Source: an uncultured virus (IMG/VR IMGVR_UViG_3300050821_008714) (taxonomy: Duplodnaviria > Heunggongvirae > Uroviricota > Caudoviricetes). From it: a stretch of 64,000 bases of DNA. The notes beneath the pieces were generated by a model. That model was not told the DNA's origin and made no database searches. It worked only from the letters and a program-made list of their open reading frames with translations. Below, piece after piece: positions 27,128-55,757 of this stretch. The first letter of the stretch is position 1. Each line of letters starts with the position of its first letter. Where the stretch lies: the IMG/VR virus record IMGVR_UViG_3300050821_008714; one strand, given 5' to 3'. The position numbers and the translations under genes were made by a program.

Positions 27128-27442
27128 TCAGCAACCCCCGTCGGCTGGCTCCGGGACTGCGATCTCGACCGCCACATCCCCGCCTTGCGCATTTCGCGCC
27201 TGCGCCAGGTAGTTCACCCCCTGGAACGGTCCATCCGAGGCCGCTGGGATCTCGCCCTCGACCTGAAGCCGGTACGTGGCCTTCAGGCCCTCGGTGTATG
27301 CGGCGGTCCAGATCTTGGACTCCATCAGGTCCGGCGCCACGCGCTGGACGTGGTCGATGAACGCCTGGACGTCGTTCAGGGTGATGCCGAAGTCGTCACC
27401 GGATACGATCTCCAGCTTCATGCCTGGCTTTGCGTGGGTCAT
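27128..27442 (-). CDS. Hypothetical protein
   Basis: GAGGAGG RBS; 104 aa. Confidence 0.65.
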   Translation of the reverse strand: MTHAKPGMKLEIVSGDDFGITLNDVQAFIDHVQRVAPDLMESKIWTAAYTEGLKATYRLQVEGEIPAASDGPFQGVNYLAQARNAQGGDVAVEIAVPEPADGGC

Positions 27443-27585
27443 GATGTTACCTCCTCGATCTGCTCGGCGACCGCCTCGGCGTCCGCCATGGCCTGGGCCG
27501 ACTGCTCGGACAAGGCACGCGGGTACGGACGGATCGCCCCGGTCGGCCGTGCGCGCCGCTGGACCCTGATCTGCGCCTGCCGCAT
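27439..27585 (-). CDS. Small hypothetical protein (48 aa, MRQAQIRVQRR...)
   Basis: Fills the gap exactly, with ATGA overlap; below the ORF-track cutoff. Confidence 0.5.
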   Translation of the reverse strand: MRQAQIRVQRRARPTGAIRPYPRALSEQSAQAMADAEAVAEQIEEVTS

Positions 27586-27586
27586 G

Positions 27587-28006
27587 TCAGGACCCCATCA
27601 GGTCGGTCAGGCGGACGCGCGGGGCCTTGCCGCCCTTGGGCGCCCTCGGGTCGGCCAGCTCGTATCCGTCGATCACGGAGTCGAGCAGGGCCCGGTCCGG
27701 GTAGGCGAACACGGGGGTGAGCCGGTGCTTGCGGGTGACGGCCCATCCGCACTGCTGCGGCTCGGCGCCCGTCTCGGCGCGGTATGCCTTCGCCACGGCG
27801 CGGCCGACGGCGGAGCGCATGCGGCGCGCCAGCTCGTCGTCGGCGCCGCGCGCCTTCAGGGCGTCCTCGACGGTGGCCACGGCGCGGTTGCGGTAGGCGG
27901 CCACGGCGCGCTCCCAGTGCGTGCCGGGCTTGCCGCAGGCGCGGCGCGGGGCCTTGCGCTGGCGGTCGAGCGGCTGGCGGATGCTGCGTGCGGTGTCACT
28001 GGTCAT
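27587..28006 (-). CDS. Basic hypothetical protein
   Basis: Preceded by GTTCAGGGAAGA and TTGTCATCAG motifs. Confidence 0.7.
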   Translation of the reverse strand: MTSDTARSIRQPLDRQRKAPRRACGKPGTHWERAVAAYRNRAVATVEDALKARGADDELARRMRSAVGRAVAKAYRAETGAEPQQCGWAVTRKHRLTPVFAYPDRALLDSVIDGYELADPRAPKGGKAPRVRLTDLMGS

Positions 28007-28061
28007 TTAGATCTTCCCTGAACTACGGGCCTTGCGGCCTTACCTGATGACAACTAGGAGA

Positions 28062-28385
28062 CTAGCGCACCTTGTCCGCACTCGCAACAGGGTACTTCCA
28101 GCCCGATCCGTAGGGTCCGGGGATGCCCCGCCTCAGCCAGGAGTCGACCTGCTCTATGTCGAACCACCGGTAGCCGCGCGGTGATCCTTCCGCCTTCCGG
28201 GTGATCTCCACAGGCTGTGGAAAAGCCTCTCCGGCGGCGTTCAGGGTGCCCCGGTGCCACCAGTCGCGGATCCGTCGGCGGTCCAGCGGCGGGTCGATGG
28301 CGTAGCGCTCCGACAGGATCGCCGCGAGCCCCTGGAATCCGGCCCTGCCGTCTCTTTCCTCCCACAGCCTGCCGACGGGCGACAT
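28062..28385 (-). CDS. Winged-helix/AlpA-Xis-like DNA-binding protein
   Basis: AAAGGAG RBS before ATG 28385; GFQGLAAIL..RRRIRDW..FPQP..RWFDIEQVDSW. Confidence 0.6.
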   Translation of the reverse strand: MSPVGRLWEERDGRAGFQGLAAILSERYAIDPPLDRRRIRDWWHRGTLNAAGEAFPQPVEITRKAEGSPRGYRWFDIEQVDSWLRRGIPGPYGSGWKYPVASADKVR

Positions 28386-28406
28386 CGCACCGTCTCCTTT
28401 CCCGCA

Positions 28407-28550
28407 TGGATGCAGTACCAGTGCGCGGAGTCGAACCGCACTCGACCAGGGCAGGCTCCCCGAAGGTCGCTTTTCGCCGGCTCGCCCGTTGTGTCGCGGC
28501 GGCGGGCTAGAAACCTGGCCACCCCGCACCTTCGTGCGGACTGGTACTGA
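28407..28550 (-). ncRNA. About 140-nt tRNA-like structured RNA (acceptor-like stem, D-position hairpin, branched anticodon-position domain, canonical T arm, downstream CCA)
   Basis: 10-bp closing stem CAGTACCAGT/ACTGGTACTG; CCGCAC-GAAG-GTGCGG; GGCCAGG/CCTGGTC; GTGCGG-TTCGACT-CCGCGC; begins at the predicted TSS. Confidence 0.7.
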
Positions 28551-28584
28551 TGACAACTATAGCCGTCCGCCGACCGACCCGCAA
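28547..28584 (-). promoter_or_regulatory. SigA-type promoter TTGCGG-N17-TATAGT followed by the TTGTCATCAG motif
   Basis: -35 at 28584-28579, -10 at 28561-28556. Confidence 0.75.
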
Positions 28585-28596
28585 GCCCGGCACGTG

Positions 28597-28629
28597 GAAG
28601 GGGCCCCTGCGGCGGCGAGGGGCCCCTTC
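28597..28629 (-). terminator. Hairpin terminator downstream of the replication operon
   Basis: 12-bp stem GAAGGGGCCCCT/AGGGGCCCCTTC. Confidence 0.7.
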
Positions 28630-28721
28630 GCTTCCCCCGTAGCGCCCCGGCCGCGCGGTTGGCCCGCCCCTCGGGGGGAGAAGGGGCAGACCTGGTCACA
28701 CGCGGCCGGGTGCTTCGCAGC

Positions 28722-29762
28722 CTACTGCGCCCAGGGCGGCTGCGGCGCGCCCTGCGGGCCGCCCTGCTCGGGCTGCTGCGCGGGCGCCTGGCCGTTCCAT
28801 GGCGCGTTGCCGGGCGCGGGCGCGGGCGCCGCGGCGGGCTGCTGCGGCTGCTGCGGGAATGGCGCCGGAGCCGCGCCGTAGCCCGGCTGCGGCGCCTGCT
28901 GCGGCTGCTGCATCGGGTTCCACGGCTGCTGCTCGGGCACGGGCGGCTGCGCCCACGGCGGGACCGCACTGCCGCCGGGCTGCCCGCCGTTGGCGGCGGG
29001 GACGCCCTCCAGCTGCTGCCACGGGTCGACGGGCGCGGGCGCCGCGGCGGGCTGCTGCGGGCCGCCGTAGGGCTGCTGCGGCTGCGGCGTGGCCCACGGG
29101 TCCGGCTGCGGCGGCTGCGCGTAGCTCGGCTGGCTGTAGTCCGGCTGCGGCTGGACGTACGCCGTCGGAGCCTGACCGTAGCCGGGCTGCGGCTGCGGGT
29201 ACTGCCCGTAGGCGGGCTGTGACTGCGGAGCCTGCTGCGGCGGGAACTGCGGCATGCCGCCGTTGAAGCCCATCTGCTGCTGCATCGGGCCGTATCCGGG
29301 CATGGCGGCGGGCGCCTGCGGCTGCTGGAAGGTCGGCCAGGTGGTCGGGGCGCCGGGCCGCGGCGGGCGGACGTCGCGCACCTTGTTGCGCTGCACGCCC
29401 TCGTACTCGTCGAGCACGATCCGGATCAGCACCGGCTTGCCGACCATCGCCTGGGCGATCTGCTCCTCGGGCGGGTTGGTCTTGATCCAGGCCTCCGGGA
29501 TGCCCATGGCCTCCAGGTGCCGGAACATGATGCCGAGCGCCTGCGGGTTGTCGGCGGTGATGGTCATCGGGAACCGGACCTGCGCGCGTCCGGCGTTCGG
29601 GCCGGTCGTCACGCGGAACCGTACGTCCCACTGCCCCTTGTCGCCCGCCTTGGTCTTGCCCCACGTGCTCGACTCGACCACGGCGTCGACCTCGCCGGCG
29701 TCGTAGACGAAGATCGAGCTGTCGGCCTGTCCGTACAGCGAGTTGAAGTCGTACTGTCCCAT
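28722..29762 (-). CDS. ssDNA-binding protein (DUF669-like OB fold) with ~210-aa Q/P/G/Y-rich tail
   Basis: GEVDAVVE..KTKAG..F.VTTGPNAGR..EYEGVQRNKVRDV; follows the AAA and exonuclease genes. Confidence 0.75.
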   Translation of the reverse strand: MGQYDFNSLYGQADSSIFVYDAGEVDAVVESSTWGKTKAGDKGQWDVRFRVTTGPNAGRAQVRFPMTITADNPQALGIMFRHLEAMGIPEAWIKTNPPEEQIAQAMVGKPVLIRIVLDEYEGVQRNKVRDVRPPRPGAPTTWPTFQQPQAPAAMPGYGPMQQQMGFNGGMPQFPPQQAPQSQPAYGQYPQPQPGYGQAPTAYVQPQPDYSQPSYAQPPQPDPWATPQPQQPYGGPQQPAAAPAPVDPWQQLEGVPAANGGQPGGSAVPPWAQPPVPEQQPWNPMQQPQQAPQPGYGAAPAPFPQQPQQPAAAPAPAPGNAPWNGQAPAQQPEQGGPQGAPQPPWAQ

Positions 29763-29765
29763 GGT

Positions 29766-30533
29766 CTAGTTCCTTCTTCCCTGGAGAACCTGCGTGAGCA
29801 TGGTTTCCGCCGTGTATCCGGGGTGGTAGACGTCCCCGATCTTCATGGTGTACGGCAGGCGTCCTCCCAGGCGCTCGCCTGTCTCGAACTGCGGGTGCGG
29901 GCCGATGAACATCAGCCGGTTGCCGTCCTGCTGCGCGCCCAGGTAGCCGAGCACGTCCACGTAGTAGGGCAGGTAGTCCTGGGCCTGGCCCTGCACCATC
30001 GGGCGCCAGCGGCCCTCCTTCAGGTGCGTACCGGCCACGAAGGTCATCGTCCACATCGGCTTGACCGGGTGCGTGATCAGGTCCCGGTACTGGCGGACCA
30101 TCGAGGACACCTGGCGCAGCAGCGCGTTCCAGTGGTCTCGCTCGATCTTGCCGTTACCGGCCAGGTCGTCGATCACCCGCTGCTGGACCTCGGTGACCGA
30201 GTCCATCGAGCAGGAGTTGAACGGGTGCTGGCCGGAGTTCAGGACGCGGTACGTCGCGGACACCGTGCGCGCCTCGCGCACGAGCACAATCGCCGTGTCC
30301 CAGCTTCCGTCCGGCACCGGCGGCGGCTCGCGCAGCGGGTCCCAGTAGATCTTCCTCGACGGGGTCCAGTACGAGGACCCCTCGACGTCGAGCACGAGGC
30401 GCGGCACCGGCCCGGAGTCGGCGAAGGTGGACTTGCCCGCCTTCGGCAGCCCGTGCACGAGGAACGACAGGCCCTGCGCCTTCCGCTGCTGGGGCTGCCG
30501 GACAAATGCAGCGGGCTGCTGCTGGACGGTCAT
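29766..30533 (-). CDS. AAA_24/Sak4-like ATPase (recombinase)
   Basis: Walker A HGLPKAGKST; LVLDVEG; MDSVTEVQ; YVDVLGYL. Confidence 0.85.
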   Translation of the reverse strand: MTVQQQPAAFVRQPQQRKAQGLSFLVHGLPKAGKSTFADSGPVPRLVLDVEGSSYWTPSRKIYWDPLREPPPVPDGSWDTAIVLVREARTVSATYRVLNSGQHPFNSCSMDSVTEVQQRVIDDLAGNGKIERDHWNALLRQVSSMVRQYRDLITHPVKPMWTMTFVAGTHLKEGRWRPMVQGQAQDYLPYYVDVLGYLGAQQDGNRLMFIGPHPQFETGERLGGRLPYTMKIGDVYHPGYTAETMLTQVLQGRRN

Positions 30534-30772
30534 CCGACGACCGCGTTCCAGATCTCCAGGCACGCCATCGCCAGGGTGAACACGACCGCCAGGTTGAACG
30601 CCGCGCGGGTGGTGGTCGTGATCCTGCCGTTGAGCCTCTTCTGCTTCGCCTCGCTGACCGCGTTGCGCTCCGCGATCTTGTTGGCCGTGTCGATGTGCCG
30701 GGCCGCCTGCTCGCCGAGCACGCCCTCCACGACGCTGCGCGGGACGCGGGGGTTGGTTGTCTGTCCATCCAT
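30530..30772 (-). CDS. Small membrane protein
   Basis: Overlapping start/stop on both sides; C-terminal TM segment. Confidence 0.6.
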   Translation of the reverse strand: MDGQTTNPRVPRSVVEGVLGEQAARHIDTANKIAERNAVSEAKQKRLNGRITTTTRAAFNLAVVFTLAMACLEIWNAVVG

Positions 30773-31746
30773 CAGATCTTCGCCATCTCTTCCCTGATCG
30801 TGCGGAGCGCGTCGTCCCTGTAGTACTCGTAGGGGTCCGCCTGGCGGAACCTCCCACTGCGGACAAGGCTACCAGACCAGTCACTGCCGTCGTTCATCAT
30901 GGGGCAGATTTCCTTGAAATCGCACCACCACTTGCAGTCGTTCGGGATCTCCGTGGGGAACATCTCCGACTGCTGCAGCGGGTTGATCACGGACAGGTCT
31001 CCGCCGCTGCGCCGGTACGTGTCATCCAGCAGCGCCCGGTGCTCCATGATCTCCGTAGCCACGGTCTGCACCTTGAGCAGCGTGGCGTGGATCTCGTCGG
31101 GCGTGTACGTGAACGCGTCGCGCCGGTAGAACGGCGGCTCGGCCTTCGCGGTCCGCTTCACCCGGCGCAGCGTGTCGATTGTGAACCCGGCCAGCTTCGG
31201 TCCGTCGGGGCCCGAGGCGAGGTGCTGCACCAGCGTGTAGAACTTCATCTGAGGATTGATCTTCAATTGCTCGGCGACCTCGAACCCGGTTCCGGTCTTG
31301 TAGTCGCGGAACAGCAGCGCCCCGTCCGAGATGCGCTCGGCCACCTGGTCCATCCGCGCGCGCAGTCGCACCCCCGGCACGCCGGGCAGGTCCACCCGGA
31401 TGTCGGTTTCGGTGGCGACGGTCCGGAAGTCGGCGTCGGCGCCCTCCTCGGCCAGCCACTCGACGTATCCGGACACCATGGCCTCGGCCAGCTCGTGCTC
31501 CTTGGCCAGGTCTGCGGCGGATTCCGGAACGCGGTTCGCCTCGATCCTGTAGAGCAGCGCGAGCACCGCGAGCGGGTCGAGCTGGTAGCCGTAGTAGGCC
31601 TCTAGCGCGGTGTGCACCCGAGTGCCGAGCTGCCGGTTGCCGACCGGCGATTCGTCGGTCGGTACGAAACCCAGGTAGTAGGTTAGGTACCAGTTGCGGC
31701 GGCACCTCGTCCACGCGTAGATCTCGGACTGCGAAATCATGGTCAT
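30772..31746 (-). CDS. Cas4/AddB-like PD-(D/E)xK exonuclease with Fe-S cysteines
   Basis: ISQSEI..CRR; GTRVHTALE; RMD..DYKT; CKWWCDFKEIC. Confidence 0.88.
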   Translation of the reverse strand: MTMISQSEIYAWTRCRRNWYLTYYLGFVPTDESPVGNRQLGTRVHTALEAYYGYQLDPLAVLALLYRIEANRVPESAADLAKEHELAEAMVSGYVEWLAEEGADADFRTVATETDIRVDLPGVPGVRLRARMDQVAERISDGALLFRDYKTGTGFEVAEQLKINPQMKFYTLVQHLASGPDGPKLAGFTIDTLRRVKRTAKAEPPFYRRDAFTYTPDEIHATLLKVQTVATEIMEHRALLDDTYRRSGGDLSVINPLQQSEMFPTEIPNDCKWWCDFKEICPMMNDGSDWSGSLVRSGRFRQADPYEYYRDDALRTIREEMAKI

Positions 31747-32906
31747 CTTCCCTGTTCTCCTTCCATGCGGGCCACCAGGCGGCGCAGCGCCTCGGCGCCC
31801 TGCTGCGGCACGACGCCGTTGCCTATGGCCTTGAGCTGGTGGGTGCGCGGGATGCTGGGCACCGCAGTGACCCATCCGTCGGCCAGGCCCATCATCCACT
31901 CGGGGAACCGCGGGCTGAGCCTGGGCCCCGTCCTGCCCGGCGCCGTCGGGCACGGCGCGGCGCGGCCGAGCACCAGCTCCCAGCGCCGGACGGCGGAGGT
32001 GTATACGCCCCAGTCGGGACCCCGGTGGTGCTCGACCTCGTCCGCGAGGGTCGGTCCATGCCCGCCCGCCCTGCGCTTGTCCGGGTCCTGCGAGCCACCG
32101 TTGACCGCGAGCTGCGCGGTCGGGGTCTTGAACAGCCGGATGATCCTGGTCTCCAGGTTGTCCTGCGACTCCGGGCGGGTCAGCGGGTAGACGCCGCCGG
32201 TGGCGTCCTTCGCCCTGGGGGTCGGCATCATCCTGATCGCGTCGAGGAGCGTCGGGCCGTACCCGTCCCCGTACGGCGTTCCGTCCGGCTGGAAGTTCGC
32301 CGTCGAGCCGGGGGAGGAGGATGTCGGGGTCGGCAGCAGGGTCGGCGCTATCGAGTCCAGGGATGACCTGACGGCCGCTCCGGGCGTCGGCGACTGGTTG
32401 CTGCCGTACGGCGTCGCGGTCGGCGTGGGCATCATCCGCATGACCGCGCTCGGCAGCATCAGGTCCCCGGACGATCCGCGCTGGTTCGGGCCGCCCTTGG
32501 TGCCGTCGGTGGCGCGGGGCGTCGGCAGCGGCCTCTGCTCCCCGAACAGGTGGCGGATCATGCAGGACTCCAGATCCTCGGCCGGCCTGGCCGGTCTGGC
32601 CGTCACGGCCACGGCGCCCGACAGGGTCGGGTTGCCGCGCGGCATCGCGGCGCTGGTGCGCTCACCGTCCGAGCGGGTCGGCGTCGGCAGGCCAGGCGAG
32701 GACGAAGAGCCTTGACCGGGGGTGCGGGGCGCCGATGTCGGACGCTCGTATACACTCCCACTCCGCATCGAACCCGAGCGCGGCAAGATCTGCGAGAACG
32801 ATTTCGAGGCCGCGCCTGAGGAGGGCTGCGACATTCTCCAGCAGGACGAGCCGGGGTCGTAGCTCGCCAACGGCCCGTGCGATCTCCGGCCAGAGCCAGC
32901 GGTCAT
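31743..32906 (-). CDS. DNA cytosine-5 methyltransferase, C-terminal subunit (variable region plus motifs IX-X)
   Basis: GGAG RBS and ATG 32906; six (L/M)PTP-type modules; LSPRFPEWMMGL..W; QLKAIGNGVVP. Confidence 0.8.
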   Translation of the reverse strand: MTAGSGRRSHGPLASYDPGSSCWRMSQPSSGAASKSFSQILPRSGSMRSGSVYERPTSAPRTPGQGSSSSPGLPTPTRSDGERTSAAMPRGNPTLSGAVAVTARPARPAEDLESCMIRHLFGEQRPLPTPRATDGTKGGPNQRGSSGDLMLPSAVMRMMPTPTATPYGSNQSPTPGAAVRSSLDSIAPTLLPTPTSSSPGSTANFQPDGTPYGDGYGPTLLDAIRMMPTPRAKDATGGVYPLTRPESQDNLETRIIRLFKTPTAQLAVNGGSQDPDKRRAGGHGPTLADEVEHHRGPDWGVYTSAVRRWELVLGRAAPCPTAPGRTGPRLSPRFPEWMMGLADGWVTAVPSIPRTHQLKAIGNGVVPQQGAEALRRLVARMEGEQGR

Positions 32907-33213
32907 CTTCCACTCCCAGCTTCTTGCCCGCGTCGGACACCGGCTGGCACGGGAAGCCCGCCGTGAGGATGTGCACCCGCTGCACCTTCGAGTAGTCGAC
33001 GGCCGCGATGTTGCCGATGTTCGGCACGCCGGGCCAGTGGTGCGCCATGATCTGCGCGGCGTACTGGTTGGCGTCAGGATTCTTCGTCTTCCTGTCCGGC
33101 GGCTCCCACTGCGCGTACCAGGCGAGCCGCGCCTGCGGGAACACATCCTCGACGGCCAGGTCGAGGCCGCCGTACCCGGAGCACAGGGATCCGATGAGCA
33201 GCTCATCCGCCAC
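32662..33213 (-). CDS. DNA cytosine-5 methyltransferase, N-terminal catalytic subunit (motifs I-VIII)
   Basis: SLCSGYGG (I), AGFPCQ (IV), LLENV (VI), GAPHPRSRLF (VIII); stops before motifs IX/X. Confidence 0.9.
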   Translation of the reverse strand: MADELLIGSLCSGYGGLDLAVEDVFPQARLAWYAQWEPPDRKTKNPDANQYAAQIMAHHWPGVPNIGNIAAVDYSKVQRVHILTAGFPCQPVSDAGKKLGVEDDRWLWPEIARAVGELRPRLVLLENVAALLRRGLEIVLADLAALGFDAEWECIRASDIGAPHPRSRLFVLAWPADADPLGR

Positions 33214-33412
33214 CGTCGCCCCTCACGAACTCTCCGTAGATCACCCGCACCCGGGGCCGCACGGACACCTGCATCTCGTCACGGGCGATCCCGGCCGACG
33301 TCACGGACTCGAACGGGATCTCGATCACGAGCTCGTCGTCACGGTAGTGGATGTCCAATCCGCCGTAGGGGCGCGGGAATCGGATCTCCAGCATCCCTCC
33401 GCCCTCACCCAC
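33203..33412 (-). CDS. Small hypothetical protein
   Basis: Fills the gap with overlaps at both ends. Confidence 0.55.
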   Translation of the reverse strand: MGEGGGMLEIRFPRPYGGLDIHYRDDELVIEIPFESVTSAGIARDEMQVSVRPRVRVIYGEFVRGDGGG

Positions 33413-35288
33413 CGGACTCGCCGCCGATCAGCCAGCGCAGCATGTCGGCGTCCCTGGTGACCTGCGCGGCGCGCTCGCCCTTCTCCTGGCCGAGCTGGTA
33501 GAGGCGCTCCTCGACACTCTTGGGCGTGATCGAGTAGACGATGCGGATGCCGCCCTGCGGGTGCCCCTCCTGTCCGATCCTGTCGATGCGCGAGATCTTC
33601 TGCTCGCGGGACCGCCAGCTCGGGTCCGGCTGCATGAAGTAGATCGTGTGCGCGGCCGTCAGCGTGATGGACTCGGCACCGGCCGCGGTGATGAAGATGA
33701 CCCGGCAGTCGCCGCGCTGGAACCAGGTCACAGCCTGGTCCATGGCGTCCGCGTTCATCCCTCCCACGATCTTGCAGTGCGTGATCTTCTTGGCGGCCAG
33801 GGCCTTCTCCGCCAGCGCGACCAGCTGCGGCGAGTTGGAGGCCACGACCAGCTGGCCGTCCTCGTCCTCCAGGAAGTCGACCAGGTCGGCCACCTTCGAG
33901 CTCGGCGCGACCATGCGCGGGTTCTCCGTGGTGAAGCCGTCGGCGTCCTCGCCCTCGACGACCTCCAGCATCGAGCTGGCCAGCTGGCACAGCCGGGAGA
34001 AGGAGACCAGGTCGTTCTGCGCGACGACCAGGCGGCCTTCGAGCTCGGCCATGGCCGACTTCTTGATCTTGTCGTAGGTGCGCTTCTGCGCCGGGGTCAT
34101 CTCCGGGTACCGGAACACCGGCTCCATCCGCTTCGGCAGGAACGGCAGCGCGATCGCGCGCGGGATGCGCCGGATCAGCGGCTGCACGAAGCTGTGGAAG
34201 GTCTCCGCCGTGTCCGGCCGGATGCCGAGCACTGTGGATCCGCCGTGGAAGTTGTGCTCCTTGATCGCGAACAGGTCCAGGTACCGGCTGCGGGACGGCG
34301 CGGTGGCGATGTCGAGCCCGTGCAGCAGCGGCCACAGCTCGCCGATGTGGTCGCCGATCGGCGTGCCGGTGGCCAGCCAGCGGTACTCGGCCTGGTGCAG
34401 AAGCCACCACAGCGCGCGGGTCTGCTTGGACCTGGCGTCCTGCATGCGGTGCGCCTCGTCGGCGATGACCGTCCGCCAGGGCACGCCGCGCAGGTTCAGA
34501 TCCTTCGCGTGCACCTCGCAGCGGGCCGGTGCGATGCCGTCGTCGATGCCGCCGCAGGCCTTGCACCGGACGAACCGGACGCCCGGGTAGGCCTCCAGGC
34601 GGGTGTGCGCGCGGACGTTCGGCCAACCCATGATCCACACGTCGGCGTCGTCGCGCTCGATCGCCTGGCGGCGGCGCAGCGCCGTGCCGTCGACCACGAC
34701 GGTGCGCAGCTCGGGAGCCCAGTTGGCGATCTCCCTCTCCCAGTTGCGCACCGCCGCGACCGTGCACACCACCAGGGCGGGGAAGGGCCCTGACCCGACC
34801 GAGCCTAGCGCGCGGACGAGCTGCATGGCCCGGATCAGCTGCGCGGTCTTGCCCTGCCCCTGCTCGTCGCCGAGGATGCCGCGTCGGCGATCGGCCAGGT
34901 AGGCGGCCCCGCCGCGCTGGAACGGGTAGAGGCGGCGCGGACGGCCGTCCTCGAACGGCACGCTGAGCTCGTCGAGCCCGTCGAGCACGGCCATCACGTC
35001 CTCGTTGGACTCGTCCGCCGCGCGGTCGTCGAGGGCGCCGCGCAGCTTCCAGGAGTACAGGACGTCTTCGTACGCCTCCTTGGACCAGGCCTGCAGCTCG
35101 GGGCCGCGATCGAGCTGCTGGCCGTGCCAGAGCATGTGTAGCGTGACGACGGTCGCCCAGGACAGCGGGGCGTGCCAGGTGTTCTTATCCTTGTCGAAGT
35201 TGCAGCCGGGGAGCTGGGTGGCGAGGTGGTTCTCCACCGTGCTGCACCCGATGGTGATCTTGCCGTTGATGATCTCAGCCCACGCCAT
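33405..35288 (-). CDS. SNF2-family (SF2) DNA helicase with Zn-finger insertion
   Basis: DEQGQGKT, IADEAH, ATGTP, QKISRIDRIGQ; CKAC..CEVH insert. Confidence 0.9.
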   Translation of the reverse strand: MAWAEIINGKITIGCSTVENHLATQLPGCNFDKDKNTWHAPLSWATVVTLHMLWHGQQLDRGPELQAWSKEAYEDVLYSWKLRGALDDRAADESNEDVMAVLDGLDELSVPFEDGRPRRLYPFQRGGAAYLADRRRGILGDEQGQGKTAQLIRAMQLVRALGSVGSGPFPALVVCTVAAVRNWEREIANWAPELRTVVVDGTALRRRQAIERDDADVWIMGWPNVRAHTRLEAYPGVRFVRCKACGGIDDGIAPARCEVHAKDLNLRGVPWRTVIADEAHRMQDARSKQTRALWWLLHQAEYRWLATGTPIGDHIGELWPLLHGLDIATAPSRSRYLDLFAIKEHNFHGGSTVLGIRPDTAETFHSFVQPLIRRIPRAIALPFLPKRMEPVFRYPEMTPAQKRTYDKIKKSAMAELEGRLVVAQNDLVSFSRLCQLASSMLEVVEGEDADGFTTENPRMVAPSSKVADLVDFLEDEDGQLVVASNSPQLVALAEKALAAKKITHCKIVGGMNADAMDQAVTWFQRGDCRVIFITAAGAESITLTAAHTIYFMQPDPSWRSREQKISRIDRIGQEGHPQGGIRIVYSITPKSVEERLYQLGQEKGERAAQVTRDADMLRWLIGGESGG

Positions 35289-35313
35289 GTCTCTTCCCTG
35301 ATCTCTTGGCCGA

Positions 35314-35778
35314 CTACAAGATGTCAGCAGTGCTGAGCGTAGCACGCCAGTGGTTCGGCAGGTTGTTGCTGCGCAGGCACCACGCCACCAGGTGCTGAGC
35401 CGCGCTCTGCGCGTCGTCCTTGCCGGAGGGCCAGATGCCCAGCTTGCGCAGGACGGCCGGGCTGGCTGGCTTGCGGTCGTCCGGCGCGGCCGGGGTGAGG
35501 AGCCGCACGTGGTGGGTCTTTGCCAGGTACTTGACCACGCCGATCATCTCGATCGTCTCGTGCACCGGCTCCTGCGTCAGCTTGTGCGTGTTCGGGCCGA
35601 TGTGGAATCGCTCAAAACCCAGCATGCCGCCGTGGTTCCACCGCTCGCAGAACGTGGCGATCATCTGCCCGGCCTGGAATGGTGGAAACTCGTCAGCCCA
35701 GAAGAACTTTCCACTCGTCAGCGTGGCGATGCCTGTCATTCCGCCGGGATCAAGCCAGAGTACTGCCGGAGGTAGCAC
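35314..35778 (-). CDS. RuvC-like Holliday junction resolvase
   Basis: LWLDPGGMTG..ERF..EMIGVV..DDAQSAAQH. Confidence 0.75.
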   Translation of the reverse strand: MLPPAVLWLDPGGMTGIATLTSGKFFWADEFPPFQAGQMIATFCERWNHGGMLGFERFHIGPNTHKLTQEPVHETIEMIGVVKYLAKTHHVRLLTPAAPDDRKPASPAVLRKLGIWPSGKDDAQSAAQHLVAWCLRSNNLPNHWRATLSTADIL

Positions 35779-35779
35779 G

Positions 35780-35995
35780 TCAGTCCCTCGCGTCGATGAG
35801 CAGCGGATACAGGGAACCGCCGTCGAAGTCCTTGGACGGCGGGATCTTCGTCCACACCCGCCCCTTCTGGTCCAGCCAGCCGACCCGGCGCAGGGTGGCG
35901 ACGTGGCTGAGCTCCTCGCCCGCCGGATCGGCTGGCACCTTCCAGTCCTCACCCTCGTACGCCTTCATGTCGGTCTGCGCGCCGGGGTACCTCAC
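35780..35995 (-). CDS. Hypothetical protein
   Basis: GTGA overlap; operon packing. Confidence 0.55.
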   Translation of the reverse strand: MRYPGAQTDMKAYEGEDWKVPADPAGEELSHVATLRRVGWLDQKGRVWTKIPPSKDFDGGSLYPLLIDARD

Positions 35996-36327
35996 GTGAG
36001 CCGCCCTCCGGTCTTGTAGTCCACGGCGATCATGACCAGGCGCCATTCGCCGGGCTGCAGGTCCATGTTGACCCTTACAGGGATCTTGAGCTTGTCGAAC
36101 GCGTTCGGCTCGGTGTGCGCGAATTCGATGTCCGGGTCGCGCAGCAGCGTCAGGCGCGTCATCGGATGCATCTCCAGCCGCAGGCTCTCCGGCACCCGGT
36201 TGGGGTCTCTGTCCCAGTACGGGTACGCCTGGTCGAGGTACTCGACGATGGACTGGTGCAGCACCCTGCGCGGGCCGTACAGCTTGAGCGCGGCCATCTC
36301 TTCGAGAGTGCGGTCCTGTTCGCTCAT
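35992..36327 (-). CDS. Hypothetical protein
   Basis: ATGA overlap with the polymerase stop. Confidence 0.6.
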   Translation of the reverse strand: MSEQDRTLEEMAALKLYGPRRVLHQSIVEYLDQAYPYWDRDPNRVPESLRLEMHPMTRLTLLRDPDIEFAHTEPNAFDKLKIPVRVNMDLQPGEWRLVMIAVDYKTGGRLT

Positions 36328-38111
36328 CCCTTCACCCATCTCTCTTCTAGGATCTTGCCGTCCCAGGTGAGCGGCACCCGGTACGTCTCGCGGTCGGTCA
36401 GGATGCGGGTCATCGTGGCCAGCGCGTCCTTAGCCTGGTCCTTGGGGAACTCGCCCATGATCTCGTCGTGGATCGTCAGGCGCAGGAACGGGCCGAGCCC
36501 GGCCGCGTCGAGCTCGATCACCTTGAGCTTGAGGATCTCCGCGCTGTGCCCCTGGATCATGTAGTTCAGGCCCGCGTACTCGCGGTTGCGGTCGGTGTAC
36601 AGCACCCGGCCCGTCGGCGTGGTCACGAAGCCCCGGCGCCCGGCGCGCACCTCGGCCTTGCACCGCATGATGATCCGCTGCATCAGCCGGTCCAGGCCCG
36701 GATACATCTGGCCGAACGCGTTGTACACCGGCTCTGCCTGCGCCACCGGCACACCGGCCGTCAGCGCCATGCGATCGAGGCCGGACCCGTAGATCCGCGC
36801 GTACGTCGAGTTCTTCGTCAGCTGGCGGCGCACGTCGGACTTCGGGATGTCCTTAGGGTCCTCCTGGAAGATCCGACCGGCCATCAGCCGGAAGAAGTCG
36901 ATGCCGGACCCGTCGGCGTCGTGGAACATCTCGATCATGCCCGGGTCGTCGGAGAAGTGCGCGGCCATCCGCGCCTCGATCTGGTCGGCGTCCACGGTGA
37001 CGAACGCGCTGCCCGGACGCGGCCGGTACGATCCCCGGATCATCGGCACGTCCCGGTCGAAGGTCTGCATCGGCGGATCCGTGACGGACTGGCGCGAGGT
37101 GCGCGCCTGGCAGGTGTTGATCGAGGCGTGGATCACGTCGTCGGAGTCACGCAGCTCCAGGAACTTGCGCAGGTGGTCGTTCACGATCTTGTTTGTCTTG
37201 CGCGCGTAGCTGATGGTCTCGATCAGGTGCCGGTGCTCCGGGTAGGTGTTCGCATACAGCTTCAGCGTGTCCTTGTCGGTCGACGCCGCCCCGTTCTTCG
37301 TCCACACCAGCGTCGGGATGCCGACCGAATGCAGCGCCCGCTCGATCTGCGCGGCCGAGTTGACCGAGGTGAGCCCGAACTCCTGACGCAGCCAGGCCAT
37401 GGCGCCGCGCTGCCACGTCTCCATCTGCTCGATCTGCCGCTCGATGTACGGCACGTCGAGCAGCATCCCCGCGTCCATCATGCCGGCCGCGATCCGGCCG
37501 GTGGCCCGCTCCAGGTCGTACGCCTCCCGGAACTGACTCATGATCTTCGGTCCGTGCTTGTGGAACAGGTGCGCGGTGAGCACGGGGTCGAGAGCGCCGT
37601 ACGCGGTGTAGCCCGGATAGTCGAGCGGCACCGTGGCCCACGTCCAGTGGTTCTTGGCCATGGCGTCCTGCAGGATCTTCTCGCCGACCATCGCGCGCGG
37701 GTCGATGTCTTGAGCGGCGCGGGGCTTGAGCCCGTGCGCGCCGAGGGAGTCGTTCAGGTGCGTGATGGGCAGCGTGTCGTGGATCTTAGCCCAGTTGAGC
37801 TTCAGGCCCATCTGCCTGTCGATCACCCGGTAGTCGTACGGCGCGTTGTGCGCGCCGAGCTCGCCCCGGTAGTCGCGCAGGATCTCCAGGACGCCGCCGC
37901 CCCACAGCTTCGCCGGGGCGGCCCATCCGGTGCGCATGTCGCCGATCTGGATCAGACGGCACTCGTCCCGGTACGGGCTCAGGCCCGCCGACTCGGTGTC
38001 GAACATCAACGGCGTTTCCCTGCGCTCCCCGGCCCACCGCTTGCACTCGGCCAGGTCGTCAATCGACGTGATCGTACGCAGGCTCACGCCGTCAAGAACT
38101 CCGCCGGTCAC
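36324..38111 (-). CDS. polA: DNA polymerase family A with 3'-5' exonuclease (no 5' nuclease domain)
   Basis: FDTESAGL (ExoI), HNAPYD, VDADQIEARM (A), RQLTKNSTYARIYG (B), TIHDEI (C). Confidence 0.95.
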   Translation of the reverse strand: MTGGVLDGVSLRTITSIDDLAECKRWAGERRETPLMFDTESAGLSPYRDECRLIQIGDMRTGWAAPAKLWGGGVLEILRDYRGELGAHNAPYDYRVIDRQMGLKLNWAKIHDTLPITHLNDSLGAHGLKPRAAQDIDPRAMVGEKILQDAMAKNHWTWATVPLDYPGYTAYGALDPVLTAHLFHKHGPKIMSQFREAYDLERATGRIAAGMMDAGMLLDVPYIERQIEQMETWQRGAMAWLRQEFGLTSVNSAAQIERALHSVGIPTLVWTKNGAASTDKDTLKLYANTYPEHRHLIETISYARKTNKIVNDHLRKFLELRDSDDVIHASINTCQARTSRQSVTDPPMQTFDRDVPMIRGSYRPRPGSAFVTVDADQIEARMAAHFSDDPGMIEMFHDADGSGIDFFRLMAGRIFQEDPKDIPKSDVRRQLTKNSTYARIYGSGLDRMALTAGVPVAQAEPVYNAFGQMYPGLDRLMQRIIMRCKAEVRAGRRGFVTTPTGRVLYTDRNREYAGLNYMIQGHSAEILKLKVIELDAAGLGPFLRLTIHDEIMGEFPKDQAKDALATMTRILTDRETYRVPLTWDGKILEERWVKG

Positions 38112-38254
38112 CGCGCGGTCCAGTTCCTGCCGGCCTTGAACACCCATCCGTTCCAGCCCTTGCCGCAGGTGCTGCAGTAGTAGAAGAACGCGTAGCCGCG
38201 TCCGGGCATCGACGTGCGGTGCCCGTTGGCGCGGTGGAAACGGTACCGGATCAC
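38108..38254 (-). CDS. Small Zn-ribbon-like protein
   Basis: GTGA overlaps; YYCSTCGK. Confidence 0.5.
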   Translation of the reverse strand: MIRYRFHRANGHRTSMPGRGYAFFYYCSTCGKGWNGWVFKAGRNWTAR

Positions 38255-38427
38255 CACGCGGCCTCCTTCTTGCACGCCGAGCACACAGGGAGCGTCCGCT
38301 CGACGTCGTCGCGCCAGGCCATGTACGTGGCATATCCGCACAGCGGGGCACGGCCACCGAGCGGCAACAGGTGCGCCACCGTGTTCGGGACCGCGTACAC
38401 GGGCCGGTACAGCGTGCTCGGGATCAT
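38251..38427 (-). CDS. Small Zn-binding protein
   Basis: AHLL..LCG..CSAC. Confidence 0.55.
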   Translation of the reverse strand: MIPSTLYRPVYAVPNTVAHLLPLGGRAPLCGYATYMAWRDDVERTLPVCSACKKEAAW

Positions 38428-42264: not shown

Positions 42265-42544
42265 GCGGACAGCGTACATGACTCGAATGACGCGTGACCG
42301 AATGCGGACGATGGTCGCACGATGTGTACCCACCCTCTGCCCCTCAATTTCTCTGGTACCAGAGAAGGTATAGGGCGGACGGTCCGCACCGTCCGCGTGC
42401 GTCCGCAGAGGTAGTGAGAGGACCCGGGAAGTGCGTCCGCATGGTCCGCAAAGCAGATGTATGTAGGCGAAATGTGCGTCCGCATAGATGTGGAGTGCTG
42501 AGTGTGCGTCCGCGTGCGTCCGCATGATCGGGTGTGCGGACGCA
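42264..42544. repeat. Iteron-like (TGC)GTCCGC(A/G) array around an 18-bp palindrome; candidate replication origin (or pac region)
   Basis: About 12 GTCCGC cores in both orientations; TTCTCTGGTACCAGAGAA at 42349-42366; locally lower GC. Confidence 0.7.
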
Positions 42545-42655
42545 CGATTCGGGGGTGTCAGATGCGGGATGCGAGGTGTGCGTCCTCGCAGGTGGGGGGA
42601 TTTTTGATCGTTGTGATCAGTTTGGCCCTATGGACGGGGATCATGGGGCCGTATC

Positions 42656-51323: not shown

Positions 51324-51385
51324 TTGACGGCGGGGCGGTAGGTGCGCCATAGTTGTCATCAGTAGGCCGACCGTTCAGGGAAGAG
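51324..51385 (+). promoter_or_regulatory. SigA-type promoter TTGACG-N18-CATAGT, TTGTCATCAG motif and GTTCAGGGAAGA start-associated motif
   Basis: Read directly from the sequence. Confidence 0.75.
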
Positions 51386-54709: not shown

Positions 54710-54745
54710 TTGCAGCGCCGGACCGCCATGCTATGTTGTCATCAG
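54710..54745 (+). promoter_or_regulatory. Promoter TTGCAG..TGnTATGTT plus TTGTCATCAG motif
   Basis: Read directly from the sequence; precedes the tRNA-like element. Confidence 0.65.
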
Positions 54746-54747
54746 GA

Positions 54748-54816
54748 GGCAGCGAGCTAAGCGGTCAGGGACTGCAGCGAGAGCGAGCAAGCCGGTTCGA
54801 ATCCCGGCCGTTGCCA
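54748..54816 (+). ncRNA. Atypical tRNA-like RNA or pseudo-tRNA (Cys-like traces; anticodon stem not formable)
   Basis: Acceptor GGCAGCG/CGTTGCC-A; T arm GCCGG-TTCGAATC-CCGGC; D-loop-like AAGCGGT; CTGCA without a pairing stem. Confidence 0.6.
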
Positions 54817-55330: not shown

Positions 55331-55370
55331 TGCTAGACTTGTCATCAGTAGTTGAACCGTTCAGGGAAGA
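55331..55370 (+). promoter_or_regulatory. Extended -10 TGCTAGACT, TTGTCATCAG and GTTCAGGGAAGA
   Basis: Same architecture as 51348-51385 and 28012-28056 (minus). Confidence 0.7.
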
Positions 55371-55388: not shown

Positions 55389-55757
55389 ATGAGCGGCGAG
55401 CTGAAGCCCAAGGTGGAGATCAAGGTCGGGCAGGAGCTGTCGGCGCGCTGGCGCGTCAAGACCCGGTACACCGTGGACCGGCGCAGGGCCGTGGTGACCC
55501 GTGTTGCCCGCGTCTGGGCCGAGGCCGAGGTGGACGGCTATATCGATCCGGTCCGGTTCCGGATCGACACCGGACTGGGCGATGAGGCGGCGCAGTTCCA
55601 CATGGACATCCCCGAGGTGCTGGCCTACGAGCAGCGCATCCGCGACTCCTGGGCGACGCTGAGGGCGCACGGCATGCGGGCCGACGAGTTCGGGGTGAAG
55701 ACCCACGACGCCGACCTGTTCGCCGTCGCCGAATTGCTGGAGAAGGGTGTGAAGTGA
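55389..55757 (+). CDS. Paralog of 52329-52739
   Basis: IKVGQEL..VTRVARVW..RF..PEVLAYEQR..L..G..LFAVAELL. Confidence 0.65.
   Translation: MSGELKPKVEIKVGQELSARWRVKTRYTVDRRRAVVTRVARVWAEAEVDGYIDPVRFRIDTGLGDEAAQFHMDIPEVLAYEQRIRDSWATLRAHGMRADEFGVKTHDADLFAVAELLEKGVK

What the first reader, a model, noticed from the sequence alone, without database searches (positions are those of the whole stretch)
28407..28584. About 140-nt tRNA-shaped RNA with its own promoter and a branched domain in place of the anticodon arm
Seen on the minus strand: a near-consensus promoter (TTGCGG-N17-TATAGT) whose predicted +1 falls on the 5' strand of a perfect 10-bp closing stem (CAGTACCAGT/ACTGGTACTG). Inside, in tRNA order, are a CCGCAC-GAAG-GTGCGG hairpin, a 7-bp GGCCAGG/CCTGGTC stem, and a textbook T arm GTGCGG-TTCGACT-CCGCGC. 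The 7-bp stem encloses about 65 nt with sub-hairpins (GCCCG/CGGGC, CC-TTCG-GG). CATCCA follows the closing stem. An upstream terminator insulates it. It is too long for a tRNA and too short for tmRNA, with no G3-U70 Ala stem. It does not follow the permuted YrlA Y-RNA order. Inference: an undescribed tRNA mimic (decoy for anticodon nucleases, synthetases or EF-Tu), or a tRNA-like leader regulating the HTH gene that starts about 20 nt downstream.
Basis: partly seen in the sequence, partly recalled or inferred. Interest (0 to 1): 0.8.

Follow-up and report, generated by a model that had tools for sequence, protein, structure and literature searches.

The report
tRNA-shaped leader RNA in a phage
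An uncultured soil phage carries, right behind one of its own conserved promoters, a 140-base RNA whose upper half copies the acceptor stem and T arm of a tRNA; it sits where related phages have an ordinary gene, and most likely acts as a processing or stability signal for the message that follows.

Summary
The sequence is as described. On the minus strand, 28549-28407, there is a perfect 10-bp closing stem, a 6-bp GAAG hairpin, a possible 7-bp stem around about 63 nt, and a canonical T arm (loop UUCGACU) that abuts the 3' strand of the closing stem. It is not a tRNA, a tmRNA or any Rfam family. A sub-threshold ARAGORN call of tRNA-Arg(UCU) with a 56-nt intron is noise.

New findings:
- The promoter belongs to a conserved family (TAnnGT-TGTCATCAG), with 6 sites in the window and 26 distinct sites across the relatives examined.
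- The RNA fills the slot where all eight divergent relatives carry a 418-aa phrog_1362 gene or its deletion remnant.
- Three of the 4 long leaders behind this promoter family carry the same "T arm stacked on a closing helix" motif. One is a second element in the window (54748-54816). Shuffles give the motif in at most 2 of 2000.
- Metatranscriptome contigs cover only the predicted transcription unit, and one bridges the RNA and the next gene.

All copies found are identical, so covariation cannot be tested.

Best reading (0.4): a co-transcribed mimic of the tRNA top half that acts as an RNase P/Z-type processing or stability module, exchanged as a promoter-linked cassette. A decoy role and a recombination relic are not excluded.

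The parts
28407..28549 (-). tRNA-shaped leader RNA (element 1), 143 nt: closing stem, hairpin 1, expanded third arm, T arm, CAUCCA tail
   Evidence: Sequence read; folds; no ARAGORN or Rfam hit; top-half motif
28540..28549 (-). 5' strand of the 10-bp closing (acceptor-like) stem. Its first 4 nt (CAGT) belong to the conserved promoter-proximal motif
   Evidence: pair probabilities 0.84-1.0
28524..28539 (-). Hairpin 1, CCGCAC-GAAG-GUGCGG, in the place of the D arm and with no linker to the closing stem
   Evidence: p 0.96-0.97
28444..28520 (-). Third arm: a possible 7-bp stem GGCCAGG/CCUGGUC around about 63 nt. The internal fold is uncertain
   Evidence: p = 0.2; alternative MFE pairing
28423..28441 (-). 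T arm GUGCGG-UUCGACU-CCGCGC, with a canonical T-loop at 28435-28429, directly abutting the 3' closing strand
28413..28422 (-). 3' strand of the closing stem, ACUGGUACUG
28547..28584 (-). Promoter-like module: TTGCGG (28584-28579), 17-nt spacer, TATAGT (28561-28556), overlapping the conserved GTTGTCATCAG (28557-28547)
   Evidence: The sigma-70 scanner does not call it
28597..28710 (-). Two GC-rich hairpins after the upstream gene (12-bp inverted repeat at 28597-28629; 10-bp inverted repeat at 28646-28710). They are terminator-like but have no U tract
   Evidence: The terminator scanner does not call them
28062..28385 (-). Downstream 107-aa gene, a candidate excisionase/MerR-like winged-helix protein. 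Ribosome-binding site AAAGGAG at 28400-28394
   Evidence: AlphaFold pLDDT 82; best Foldseek rows are Xis/excisionase/MerR, all with E of 0.4 or more; no Pfam or PHROG hit
27587..28006 (-). Next small gene (139 aa, no family), behind a second copy of the promoter motif at 28044-28054
28722..29762 (-). Upstream gene, SSB-like (phrog_6015); last gene of the replication and recombination operon
54748..54816 (+). Second tRNA-like leader (element 2), 69 nt: 7-bp stem GGCAGCG/CGUUGCC, an inner hairpin, T-like arm GCCGG-UUCGAAUC-CCGGC, then A. It lies directly behind the promoter motif at 54735-54745 and is absent at the same locus in relative G002

Best explanation
The window is most of the genome of an uncultured siphovirus with about 70% G+C. 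Minus-strand bases 28549-28407 encode a structured, non-coding leader RNA.

Transcription starts at a phage-conserved promoter module (TAnnGT-TGTCATCAG) and runs through the RNA into a small gene for a winged-helix-like protein.

The RNA is a four-way junction. Its upper half, a 10-bp closing stem stacked on a 6-bp T arm with the loop UUCGACU, copies the acceptor/T-arm domain of tRNA. Its lower half is not tRNA-like.

I infer that the host's tRNA end-processing enzymes recognise this domain. RNase P would cut at the 5' side of the stem. RNase Z or an equivalent enzyme would cut after the unpaired-equivalent A at 28416. This would release a stable RNA of about 130 nt and leave a trimmed mRNA. 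In other words, it would be a phage counterpart of tRNA punctuation or t-elements.

At the least, it would be a stabilising 5' structure. It would replace the short hairpin that the other transcription units of this phage have at the same place.

The element arrived as a cassette. It replaces a 1.3-kb phrog_1362 gene that all divergent relatives have at this spot, either complete or as a deletion remnant.

Status of each step: the anatomy, the promoter family, the replacement and the enrichment of the motif in long leaders are shown. Transcription is weakly supported. Processing by RNase P or Z is inferred.
For: 1. Anatomy.

2. Promoter family. GTTGTCATCAG with at most 1 mismatch occurs 6 times in the window. 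TATAGTTGTCATCAGT with at most 3 mismatches occurs 5 times, against 0.03 expected. I collected 26 distinct sites in the window and in loci of G002-G005 and G007. In nearly all of them a hairpin, a CAGGGA(A/G)G ribosome-binding site and a start codon follow.

3. Replacement. Homology to L007 and L008 runs up to 28546 and resumes at 28415. L007, L008, L009, L014, L023, L024 and L025 carry a phrog_1362 gene of about 418 aa there (E = 2.8e-64 for L007). L012 keeps only its 3' remnant. tblastn finds no phrog_1362 gene in the window.

4. A model built from the RNA finds no copy in G002-G005 or elsewhere in the window.

5. Class-level support. Of the 4 leaders of 80 nt or more behind this promoter, 3 have a T-loop hairpin within 0-1 nt of a closing helix of 6 bp or more: element 1, element 2 at 54748-54816, and L031. 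L037 does not. In 2000 shuffles of each leader the motif appears 2, 0, 2 and 1 times. The exact string GGTTCGANTCC occurs only twice in the window, both times in these leaders.

6. RNA evidence. Contigs of metatranscriptome X6 lie at 27964-28114, 28103-28253 and 28361-28534, all identical to the window. None lies between 28535 and 29800. X18 covers 28240-28390.

7. An independent analogue. Gordonia phage VanLee has 9 intergenic acceptor/T-arm minihelices with covariation: 98.3% of cells paired, 5 of 12 pairs with compensatory changes, and 0 of 500 shuffles as good.

8. Literature (passages read, PMC3858429). An acceptor stem plus a T stem-loop is a minimal substrate of bacterial RNase P. The precursor of the P1/P7 C4 RNA and the plant t-elements are tRNA-like substrates. 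For t-elements see also PMC1920247.
Against: - No sequence variant of the RNA exists in anything I could reach. G001, L004/G006, L022 and DNA runs X2 and X3 are 100% identical over the element. The structure therefore has no covariation support.
- The overall fold z-score is only -2.4. The third arm has p = 0.2.
- The closing stem is 10 bp stacked on a 6-bp T stem, 16 bp in all, against 12 bp in tRNA. Whether RNase P or RNase Z would measure and cut it is unknown.
- The RNA contigs are at depth 2-3, cannot show ends or strand, and DNA carry-over is not excluded.
- The sigma-70 scanner does not call the promoter.
- One long leader of the family (L037) lacks the motif.
- The element lies in a block of about 1.5 kb (27300-28767) that was shared recently between diverged phages. 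Its perfect conservation therefore says nothing about selection.
Confidence: 0.4

Rival explanations
1. A free-standing tRNA mimic that acts in trans. After release it would titrate or distract a host factor that reads the acceptor/T-arm domain or the elbow. Candidates are a tRNA-cleaving defence nuclease, the CCA-adding enzyme, EF-Tu or a T-loop-modifying enzyme.
For: It rests on the same top-half mimicry as the best explanation. The phage has no canonical tRNA gene that could serve instead. Two unrelated tRNA-like elements were acquired in one genome, which suggests that they are useful in themselves. They sit behind promoters of a conserved family.
Against: Known anticodon nucleases read the anticodon loop. 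Here that position is a weak stem around about 63 nt. ARAGORN's loop reading as tRNA-Arg(UCU) is at noise level: 22 such calls per window at ps92, 50 at ps90, and 25 per shuffled window at ps90. No partner or defence gene was identified. Nothing shows that the RNA accumulates.
Confidence: 0.2
2. A recombination scar without function. A fragment of a degenerate tRNA gene or of another structured RNA was captured when the phrog_1362 gene was lost. It is tolerated because that gene is dispensable.
For: The slot is unstable: L012 has a plain deletion that leaves a 3' remnant of the gene. The RNA is confined to one lineage and has no variants. Four pairs of the 10-bp stem come from the flanking conserved sequence. 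The lengths of its 3' half fit those of a tRNA (stem 5, variable loop 5, T arm 5-7-5, acceptor 7, then A; my own reading).
Against: The motif recurs in 3 of 4 long leaders of the same promoter family, in elements that do not align with one another. Shuffles give it in at most 2 of 2000. The 22-nt variable loop plus T arm matches no genome of 185,579 species representatives exactly, and BLAST finds no phage tRNA, so no donor tRNA is evident. The stems are perfect and not decayed.
Confidence: 0.25
3. A cis-regulatory leader that controls the downstream gene, either a riboswitch or attenuator, or an antisense RNA of the P1/P7 C4 type.
For: It lies in the 5' UTR and ends 22 nt before the start codon. 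C4 is likewise a promoter-proximal, tRNA-like RNA that RNase P cuts out of the transcript it regulates (passage read).
Against: No Rfam riboswitch or C4 match. The best rows are ZTP at 13.3 bits against a 39-bit threshold and LAGLIDADG-2 at 16.7 against 94.9. There is no terminator or structure that hides the ribosome-binding site between the RNA and the gene. Duplex energies to 10 start regions are not unusual: z from -2.25 to +1.72, and +0.23 for the gene directly downstream.
Confidence: 0.08
4. A true tRNA gene, tRNA-Arg(UCU), interrupted by a 56-nt intron in the anticodon loop.
For: ARAGORN with introns allowed and the threshold lowered to 90% reports it at 28415-28545. AGA is a rare codon in G+C-rich hosts (general knowledge).
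Against: The call is at noise level: none at 100% or 97%; 22 calls per window at 92%; 50 at 90%; 250 in 10 shuffled windows at 90%. The Rfam tRNA model gives nothing at E up to 10, although the same scan finds true tRNAs in control locus L021 at 57-63 bits. There is no U8 or 2-nt linker, no D loop with GG, and a C-C mismatch at pair 7-66 (read). 56 nt is far below the size of bacterial group I introns (general knowledge).
Confidence: 0.03

Closest known systems
Plant-mitochondrial t-elements (tRNA-like punctuation signals)
   Same: Both have a tRNA-like acceptor stem plus T arm, with the other arms reduced or aberrant. Both are embedded in mRNA precursors next to coding regions. T-elements direct RNase P and RNase Z cuts that create mRNA ends (PMC1920247, passages; PMC3858429, passages).
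   Different: This element is in a phage of a G+C-rich bacterium and lies right at the transcription start instead of between genes. It has a 10-bp stem, not a 7-bp one, and a large extra arm. No cleavage data exist.
C4 antisense RNA of phages P1 and P7 (Rfam C4 family, recalled as RF01695)
   Same: Both are phage-encoded small structured RNAs placed first in an operon and co-transcribed with the genes behind. C4 has a tRNA-like structure and is a substrate of RNase P (PMC3858429 passage).
   Different: No Rfam match. No significant complementarity to downstream start regions. The host phylum, size and fold differ.
tRNA-like domain of tmRNA, and YrlA-type Y RNAs
   Same: An acceptor/T-arm mimic is joined to a large non-tRNA domain where the anticodon arm would be.
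   Different: ARAGORN finds no tmRNA even at a lowered threshold. There is no G3-U70 pair. I read no stop-terminated tag frame, but that was by eye only. No Ro/TROVE gene was found in the ORFs scanned with Pfam (15 submitted and 25, three of them the same, none with a TROVE hit). The strand order is not permuted.
Acceptor/T-arm minihelix repeats of Gordonia phages (VanLee, Cafasso and others), noticed here; I know of no description
   Same: Both lie in the noncoding stretch directly upstream of a small gene in an actinophage or actinophage-like genome. Both have a T-loop UUCGAYU on a 6-bp stem abutting an acceptor-like helix, followed by A-C-N-G. The Cafasso copy shares 28 of 33 bases with the 3' end of element 1, including GCAUCCA.
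   Different: The Gordonia elements are about 50 nt, have no D-like or third arm, and occur 9 times per genome. They have covariation support. The BLAST link to the window is at chance level (E = 2), so homology is not shown.

Membership tests
Canonical tRNA | Recognised by a tRNA gene finder at default threshold | tested here: not met
   ARAGORN finds 0 genes in the window. With introns allowed, nothing at 100% or 97% of the threshold.
Canonical tRNA | Match to the Rfam tRNA covariance model | tested here: not met
   No tRNA row at the gathering score or at E up to 10 on 161 nt. Positive control L021 gives 62.6 and 57.1 bits.
Canonical tRNA | T arm with a 7-nt T-loop (UUCRANY) closed by G-C, contiguous with the acceptor stem | tested here: met
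   GUGCGG-UUCGACU-CCGCGC at 28441-28423, directly followed by the 3' strand of the closing stem.
Canonical tRNA | 7-bp acceptor, 2-nt linker, D arm with G18 G19, and a 5-bp anticodon stem with a 7-nt loop | tested here: not met
   The stem is 10 bp with no linker. A 6-bp hairpin with a GAAG loop takes the place of the D arm. The third arm encloses about 63 nt.
tmRNA | tRNA-Ala-like acceptor (G3-U70) and a tag reading frame, detectable by ARAGORN | tested here: not met
   ARAGORN in tmRNA mode finds none at default or at 80% of the threshold. The closing stem has no G-U pair.
YrlA / bacterial Y RNA | An Rfam match, and a neighbouring Ro (TROVE) gene | tested here: not met
   No Rfam match. No TROVE hit in the ORFs scanned with Pfam (15 submitted and 25, three of them the same).
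RNase P/Z-processed tRNA-like element (t-element type) | An acceptor-like helix coaxial with a T stem-loop | tested here: met
   Motif found. That this is the minimal RNase P substrate comes from the PMC3858429 passage.
RNase P/Z-processed tRNA-like element (t-element type) | RNA ends that coincide with the ends of the helix (cleavage in vivo or in vitro) | not testable with these tools
   Only assembled contigs of RNA runs were available, and these cannot show ends.
P1/P7 C4 antisense RNA | An Rfam match, and loops complementary to a site in the downstream mRNA | tested here: not met
   No Rfam match. Duplex z-score +0.23 for the gene directly downstream; the best of 10 targets scores -2.25.
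Riboswitch / attenuator | A known aptamer, plus an expression platform (a terminator or occlusion of the ribosome-binding site) | tested here: not met
   Best aptamer row is ZTP at 13.3 bits against a 39-bit threshold. No terminator-like site. The ribosome-binding site lies outside the fold.

The most novel reading that the evidence does not exclude
Soil phages of G+C-rich hosts use a previously undescribed class of promoter-coupled, cassette-like mimics of the tRNA top half. The window has two (28549-28407 and 54748-54816), and relative G005 has a third. The covarying 50-nt minihelix repeats of Gordonia phages would be the minimal form of the same class. Together they would amount to a bacterial-virus version of tRNA punctuation: the host's tRNA-processing machinery is recruited to cut and stabilise phage messages, and the released RNAs may also serve as decoys.
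Probability: 0.3. Interest if true: 0.7.

Novelty: new variant of a known kind. Interest (0 to 1): 0.5.

Why it matters
If the element is processed as proposed, phages of Actinobacteria-like hosts would shape their transcripts with the host's tRNA-maturation enzymes. That strategy is established for organelles and for a few single RNAs (the P1 C4 RNA, tmRNA), but not as a recurrent feature of phage gene organisation.

It would also explain unannotated 50-150-nt gaps in actinophage genomes. It would give annotators a simple motif to look for: a T-loop hairpin abutting a closing helix, placed behind a promoter or before a ribosome-binding site.

The cassette behaviour shows how conserved promoter modules can act as recombination joints in phage mosaicism. 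The evidence for it is the shared promoter, the gene swapped for an RNA, and the identical 1.5-kb block in otherwise diverged phages.

Tried and rejected
- Homologues for covariation. Exact-pattern scans of viral contigs with 26-nt and 21-nt stretches found only the two identical records. BLAST against 50,697 phage records found no match at E up to 1e-5 and only chance-level rows at E up to 10.
- Protein-anchored searches. The downstream protein, the SSB-like protein and the DNA polymerase were used on viral contigs. The alignment of the downstream protein was used on metagenome contigs. They gave relatives that lack the RNA, or identical copies.
- A covariance model built from the single sequence found no copy in G002-G005, in L022-L025 apart from the identical L022, or in L029-L041.
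- Donor search. The 22-nt variable loop plus T arm has 0 exact matches in the species-representative genomes. No internal source exists in the window or in G002-G005.
- ARAGORN with introns gave a tRNA-Arg(UCU) call, which was shown to be noise.
- The hits of model R1 in Cafasso (23.5 bits) and Celia (17.2 bits) come from loci chosen beforehand by BLAST. Celia shares only a UUCG hairpin.
- An antisense role found no support.
- The downstream protein has no Pfam, PHROG or PDB sequence match. Fold resemblance to excisionase and MerR domains is weak.
- A pattern taken from element 2 found two viral contigs that share only the T arm.
- Earlier findings of this scan: nothing on record.
- Literature. 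Searches for "tRNA-like" with "actinobacteriophage" (3 papers hold both terms, 2 were listed; none of the titles or abstract starts is relevant, and in the one I opened, PMC10732093, the term occurs only in the reference list), and for "tRNA-like", "bacteriophage", "RNase P" and "intergenic" together, found no description of such elements. This covers only the held library.
- RNA-run parts without cover (28535-29800 in X6) are noted only as contig-level data.
Full report
**What the window is.** The window has about 70% G+C. It encodes a terminase, a portal protein, a tape-measure protein and minor tail proteins on the plus strand. A leftward arm (27587-38357) carries a family A DNA polymerase, an SNF2 helicase, methyltransferases, a PD-(D/E)XK exonuclease, a Sak4-like protein and an SSB-like protein. 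A rightward arm follows, with a primase-polymerase gene and many small genes. I found no integrase and no tRNA gene. The terminase is at most 32.5% identical to that of any of 50,697 deposited phages, so this is an uncultured phage. Its own assembly is not held. Related IMG/VR records are complete genomes of 72-75 kb with terminal repeats.

**The observation.** The 143-nt RNA runs from 28549 to 28407 on the minus strand. Pair probabilities are 0.84-1.0 for the closing stem, about 0.97 for hairpin 1, 0.54 for the T arm and 0.2 for the 7-bp third stem. The z-score is -2.4.

A perfect 10-bp inverted repeat within 200 nt is not rare here: there are 70 in the window. The combination is rarer. A T-loop hairpin followed within 0-1 nt by a 7-bp closing helix occurs at 3 sites in the window, against 0.325 per shuffled window. 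The looser form of the motif, with a 6-bp helix, appears in 2 of 2000 shuffles of this leader.

The -35 hexamer matches the consensus at 3 of 6 positions, and the consensus scanner calls neither a promoter nor a terminator in 27900-28900.

**What it is not.**
- ARAGORN finds no tRNA or tmRNA.
- Rfam 15 gives nothing at the gathering score. In lax scans it gives only rows far below threshold: LAGLIDADG-2 at 16.7 bits against 94.9, and ZTP at 13.3 against 39. The scan does find true tRNAs in control locus L021.
- With introns allowed and the threshold lowered, ARAGORN reports tRNA-Arg(UCU) with a 56-nt intron. The same setting gives 22 calls per window at 92%, 50 at 90%, and 25 per shuffled window at 90%. 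That call is worthless.
- No Ro/TROVE gene is present among the ORFs scanned.

**The promoter is one of a family.** The -10 region runs into a conserved string, TAnnGT-TGTCATCAG(T/G).
- It occurs at 28557(-), 28054(-), 42610(+), 51352(+), 54735(+) and 55338(+) in the window.
- It also occurs in relatives G002, G003, G004, G005 and G007, giving 26 distinct sites in all.
- The usual unit is a -35 hexamer TTGnnn, the motif, a short GC hairpin, a CAGGGA(A/G)G ribosome-binding site and a start codon, with a leader of 22-68 nt.

This conservation is the best evidence that transcription starts just upstream of the closing stem. The first four bases of the closing stem (CAGT) belong to the motif.

**The RNA occupies the slot of a gene.** Homology between the window and L007/L008 runs through the SSB-like gene, the hairpins and the promoter as far as 28546. 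It resumes at 28415, just before the ribosome-binding site of the small downstream gene.
- Between these points L007 has a 418-aa gene of phrog_1362, of unknown function (E = 2.8e-64).
- The same gene is present in L008, L009, L014, L023, L024 and L025.
- L012 has lost it except for a 3' remnant.
- The window has no phrog_1362 gene anywhere.
- The 130-nt insert has no source in the window or in G002-G005.

The copies I found are 100% identical over the element: G001, L004/G006, L022 and the contigs of DNA runs X2 and X3. L004 shares an almost identical block, 27300-28767, with 5 differences. To the left of 28768 it differs at 2-58 positions per 100 nt as far as about 30900. The module was therefore exchanged recently between diverged phages.

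**It is not alone.** The exact T-arm core GGTTCGANTCC occurs twice in the window. The second occurrence lies in the leader behind the promoter at 54735. There, bases 54748-54816 form a 7-bp stem (GGCAGCG/CGUUGCC), an inner hairpin and a T-like arm (GCCGG-UUCGAAUC-CCGGC) that abuts the 3' strand, followed by A. Relative G002 has only a 13-nt spacer at that locus.

Among the 26 promoter sites, four have leaders of 80 nt or more. Three of them (element 1, element 2, and L031 of G005) carry a T-loop hairpin within 0-1 nt of a closing helix of 6 bp or more. The fourth (L037 of G002, about 300 nt) has a T-like hairpin but no abutting helix. Shuffles of the four leaders show the motif in 2, 0, 2 and 1 of 2000 (the hit for element 1 comes, because my leader-length heuristic cut it short). 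The three elements do not align with one another, and model R1 does not find the others. What recurs is the architecture, not the sequence.

**Transcription.** Contigs of one soil metatranscriptome (X6) match the window perfectly at 27964-28114, 28103-28253 and 28361-28534. A second (X18) matches at 28240-28390. Neither has any contig between 28535 and 29800, apart from one 34-nt partial match of X18 with 3 differences.

This is the pattern expected for a unit that starts at the proposed promoter. One contig joins the RNA to the start of the downstream gene. The depth is only 2-3, contigs show neither ends nor strand, and DNA carry-over cannot be excluded. I count this as weak support.

**The downstream gene.** The downstream gene (28385-28062, 107 aa) has no Pfam, PHROG or PDB sequence match. 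An AlphaFold model (pLDDT 82) resembles excisionase, Xis and MerR-type winged-helix domains. These include 2kvv, 4j2n, 4lhf, 8dgl and 3hh0, but all have E of 0.4 or more. "HTH gene" is plausible but not shown.

**Mechanism.** The conserved feature is the tRNA "top half". According to the passages I read, an acceptor stem plus a T stem-loop is a minimal substrate of bacterial RNase P. RNase P also processes the tRNA-like precursor of the P1/P7 C4 RNA and tmRNA. In plant mitochondria, tRNA-like t-elements direct RNase P and RNase Z cuts that make mRNA ends (PMC3858429; PMC1920247).

I therefore propose that element 1 is cut out of the primary transcript by the host's tRNA end-processing enzymes. 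It would thereby set the 5' end and the stability of the downstream message. At the least, it would act as an elaborate 5'-terminal stabiliser in the position where sister units have a simple hairpin. These steps are inferred. The 16-bp stack is longer than the 12 bp of tRNA, which may or may not be tolerated.

**Rivals.**
- A trans-acting decoy. It rests on the same evidence and is untested.
- A neutral recombination scar. The unstable slot and the lack of variants favour it; the recurrence of the motif speaks against it.
- A riboswitch or antisense leader. There is no platform, no family match and no complementarity.
- An intron-containing tRNA. This rests on a noise-level call.

**In passing.** A chance-level BLAST row (E = 2) led to Gordonia phages. 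VanLee has nine unannotated intergenic elements of about 50 nt, each with an acceptor-like stem, a GGUC variable-loop-like linker, a T arm and A-C-G (0.57 expected). Compensatory changes occur in 5 of 12 pairs, 98.3% of cells are paired, and 0 of 500 shuffles reach this. Copies also occur in Cafasso, Aleemily, ObLaDi, Morgana and Trine.

Rfam reports nothing there. It also missed VanLee's tRNA-Arg(tct), which ARAGORN finds, so that negative result is soft. These repeats show that tRNA top-half mimics in front of small genes are a real, selected feature in at least one group of actinophages.

**Verdict.** The element is real, and the motif statistics and the promoter context show that it is not random. 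It matches no described family.

Its most likely role is a tRNA-like processing or stability module in a leader (0.4). The tRNA-mimic decoy reading remains open (0.2), as does a functionless relic (0.25). I rate it a new variant of a known kind, with interest 0.5.

Noticed in passing
L027 (Gordonia phage VanLee NC_073474.1, 60648-84560 reverse complement): T-loops at 4679, 5181, 6324, 7015, 8290, 8925, 9304, 11883 and 12369. Also L019:1183-1233 (Cafasso): There are nine unannotated intergenic minihelices of about 50 nt, each with an acceptor-like stem, a T arm (UUCGAYU loop) and A-C-G. They lie on the sense strand before small genes. Covariation is strong: 98.3% of cells paired, 5 of 12 pairs with compensatory changes, and 0 of 500 shuffles as good. 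Copies also occur in Aleemily, ObLaDi, Morgana and Trine. VanLee also encodes a Ro-like RNA-binding protein next to a tRNA-Arg(tct) gene.
   Followed up: partly
window 54748-54816 (+), behind the promoter motif at 54735-54745: A second tRNA-sized element of 69 nt, with a 7-bp stem and a T-like arm whose loop has 8 nt. ARAGORN and Rfam do not call it. It is absent at the same locus in relative G002, which has a 13-nt spacer there.
   Followed up: partly
window 28044-28054(-), 28547-28557(-), 42610-42620(+), 51352-51362(+), 54735-54745(+) and 55338-55348(+): A conserved promoter and leader module: TTGnnn, a 17-18-nt spacer, TAnnGT-TGTCATCAG(T/G), a short hairpin, then (C)GTTCAGGGAAGA before the start codon. 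It is shared with relatives G002-G005 and G007. It resembles the start-associated sequences known from some mycobacteriophages (recalled, not checked).
   Followed up: partly
L037:1512-1808 (G002) and L031:1352-1500, minus strand (G005): Two more long structured leaders (about 300 nt and about 150 nt) lie behind the same promoter in relatives. L031 has the T-arm-plus-closing-helix motif. The two share a CCCG(A/U)U(G/C)AACUCGGGGUC hairpin. Neither has an Rfam or ARAGORN hit.
   Followed up: partly
window 42396-42546 (+): A cluster of repeats of GTGCGTCCGC(A), direct and inverted, lies in a 770-nt stretch that my gene filter left without a called gene. The stretch lies between the gene ending at 41886 and the promoter motif at 42610. 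It could be an origin of replication or an array of binding sites.
   Followed up: no
window 27300-28767 compared with L004 and DNA runs X2 and X3: A nearly identical block of 1.5 kb (5 differences) abuts a strongly diverged SSB-like gene (up to 58 differences per 100 nt). There is a sharp recombination boundary at about 28768, at the end of that gene.
   Followed up: partly
window 55389-55757 (+): A small protein with a phage ProQ C-terminal-like domain (PF24203, E = 9.7e-10), a possible RNA-binding protein. It is encoded two genes downstream of element 2, behind its own copy of the promoter.
   Followed up: no
L021:1379-2157 (Streptomyces phage TunaTartare): The Rfam tmRNA model matches across 779 nt (50.5 bits, threshold 47). 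The match spans an annotated endonuclease VII gene and lies next to tRNA genes. It may be an interrupted or two-piece tmRNA. A further weak, unannotated tRNA match lies at 937-1012.
   Followed up: no
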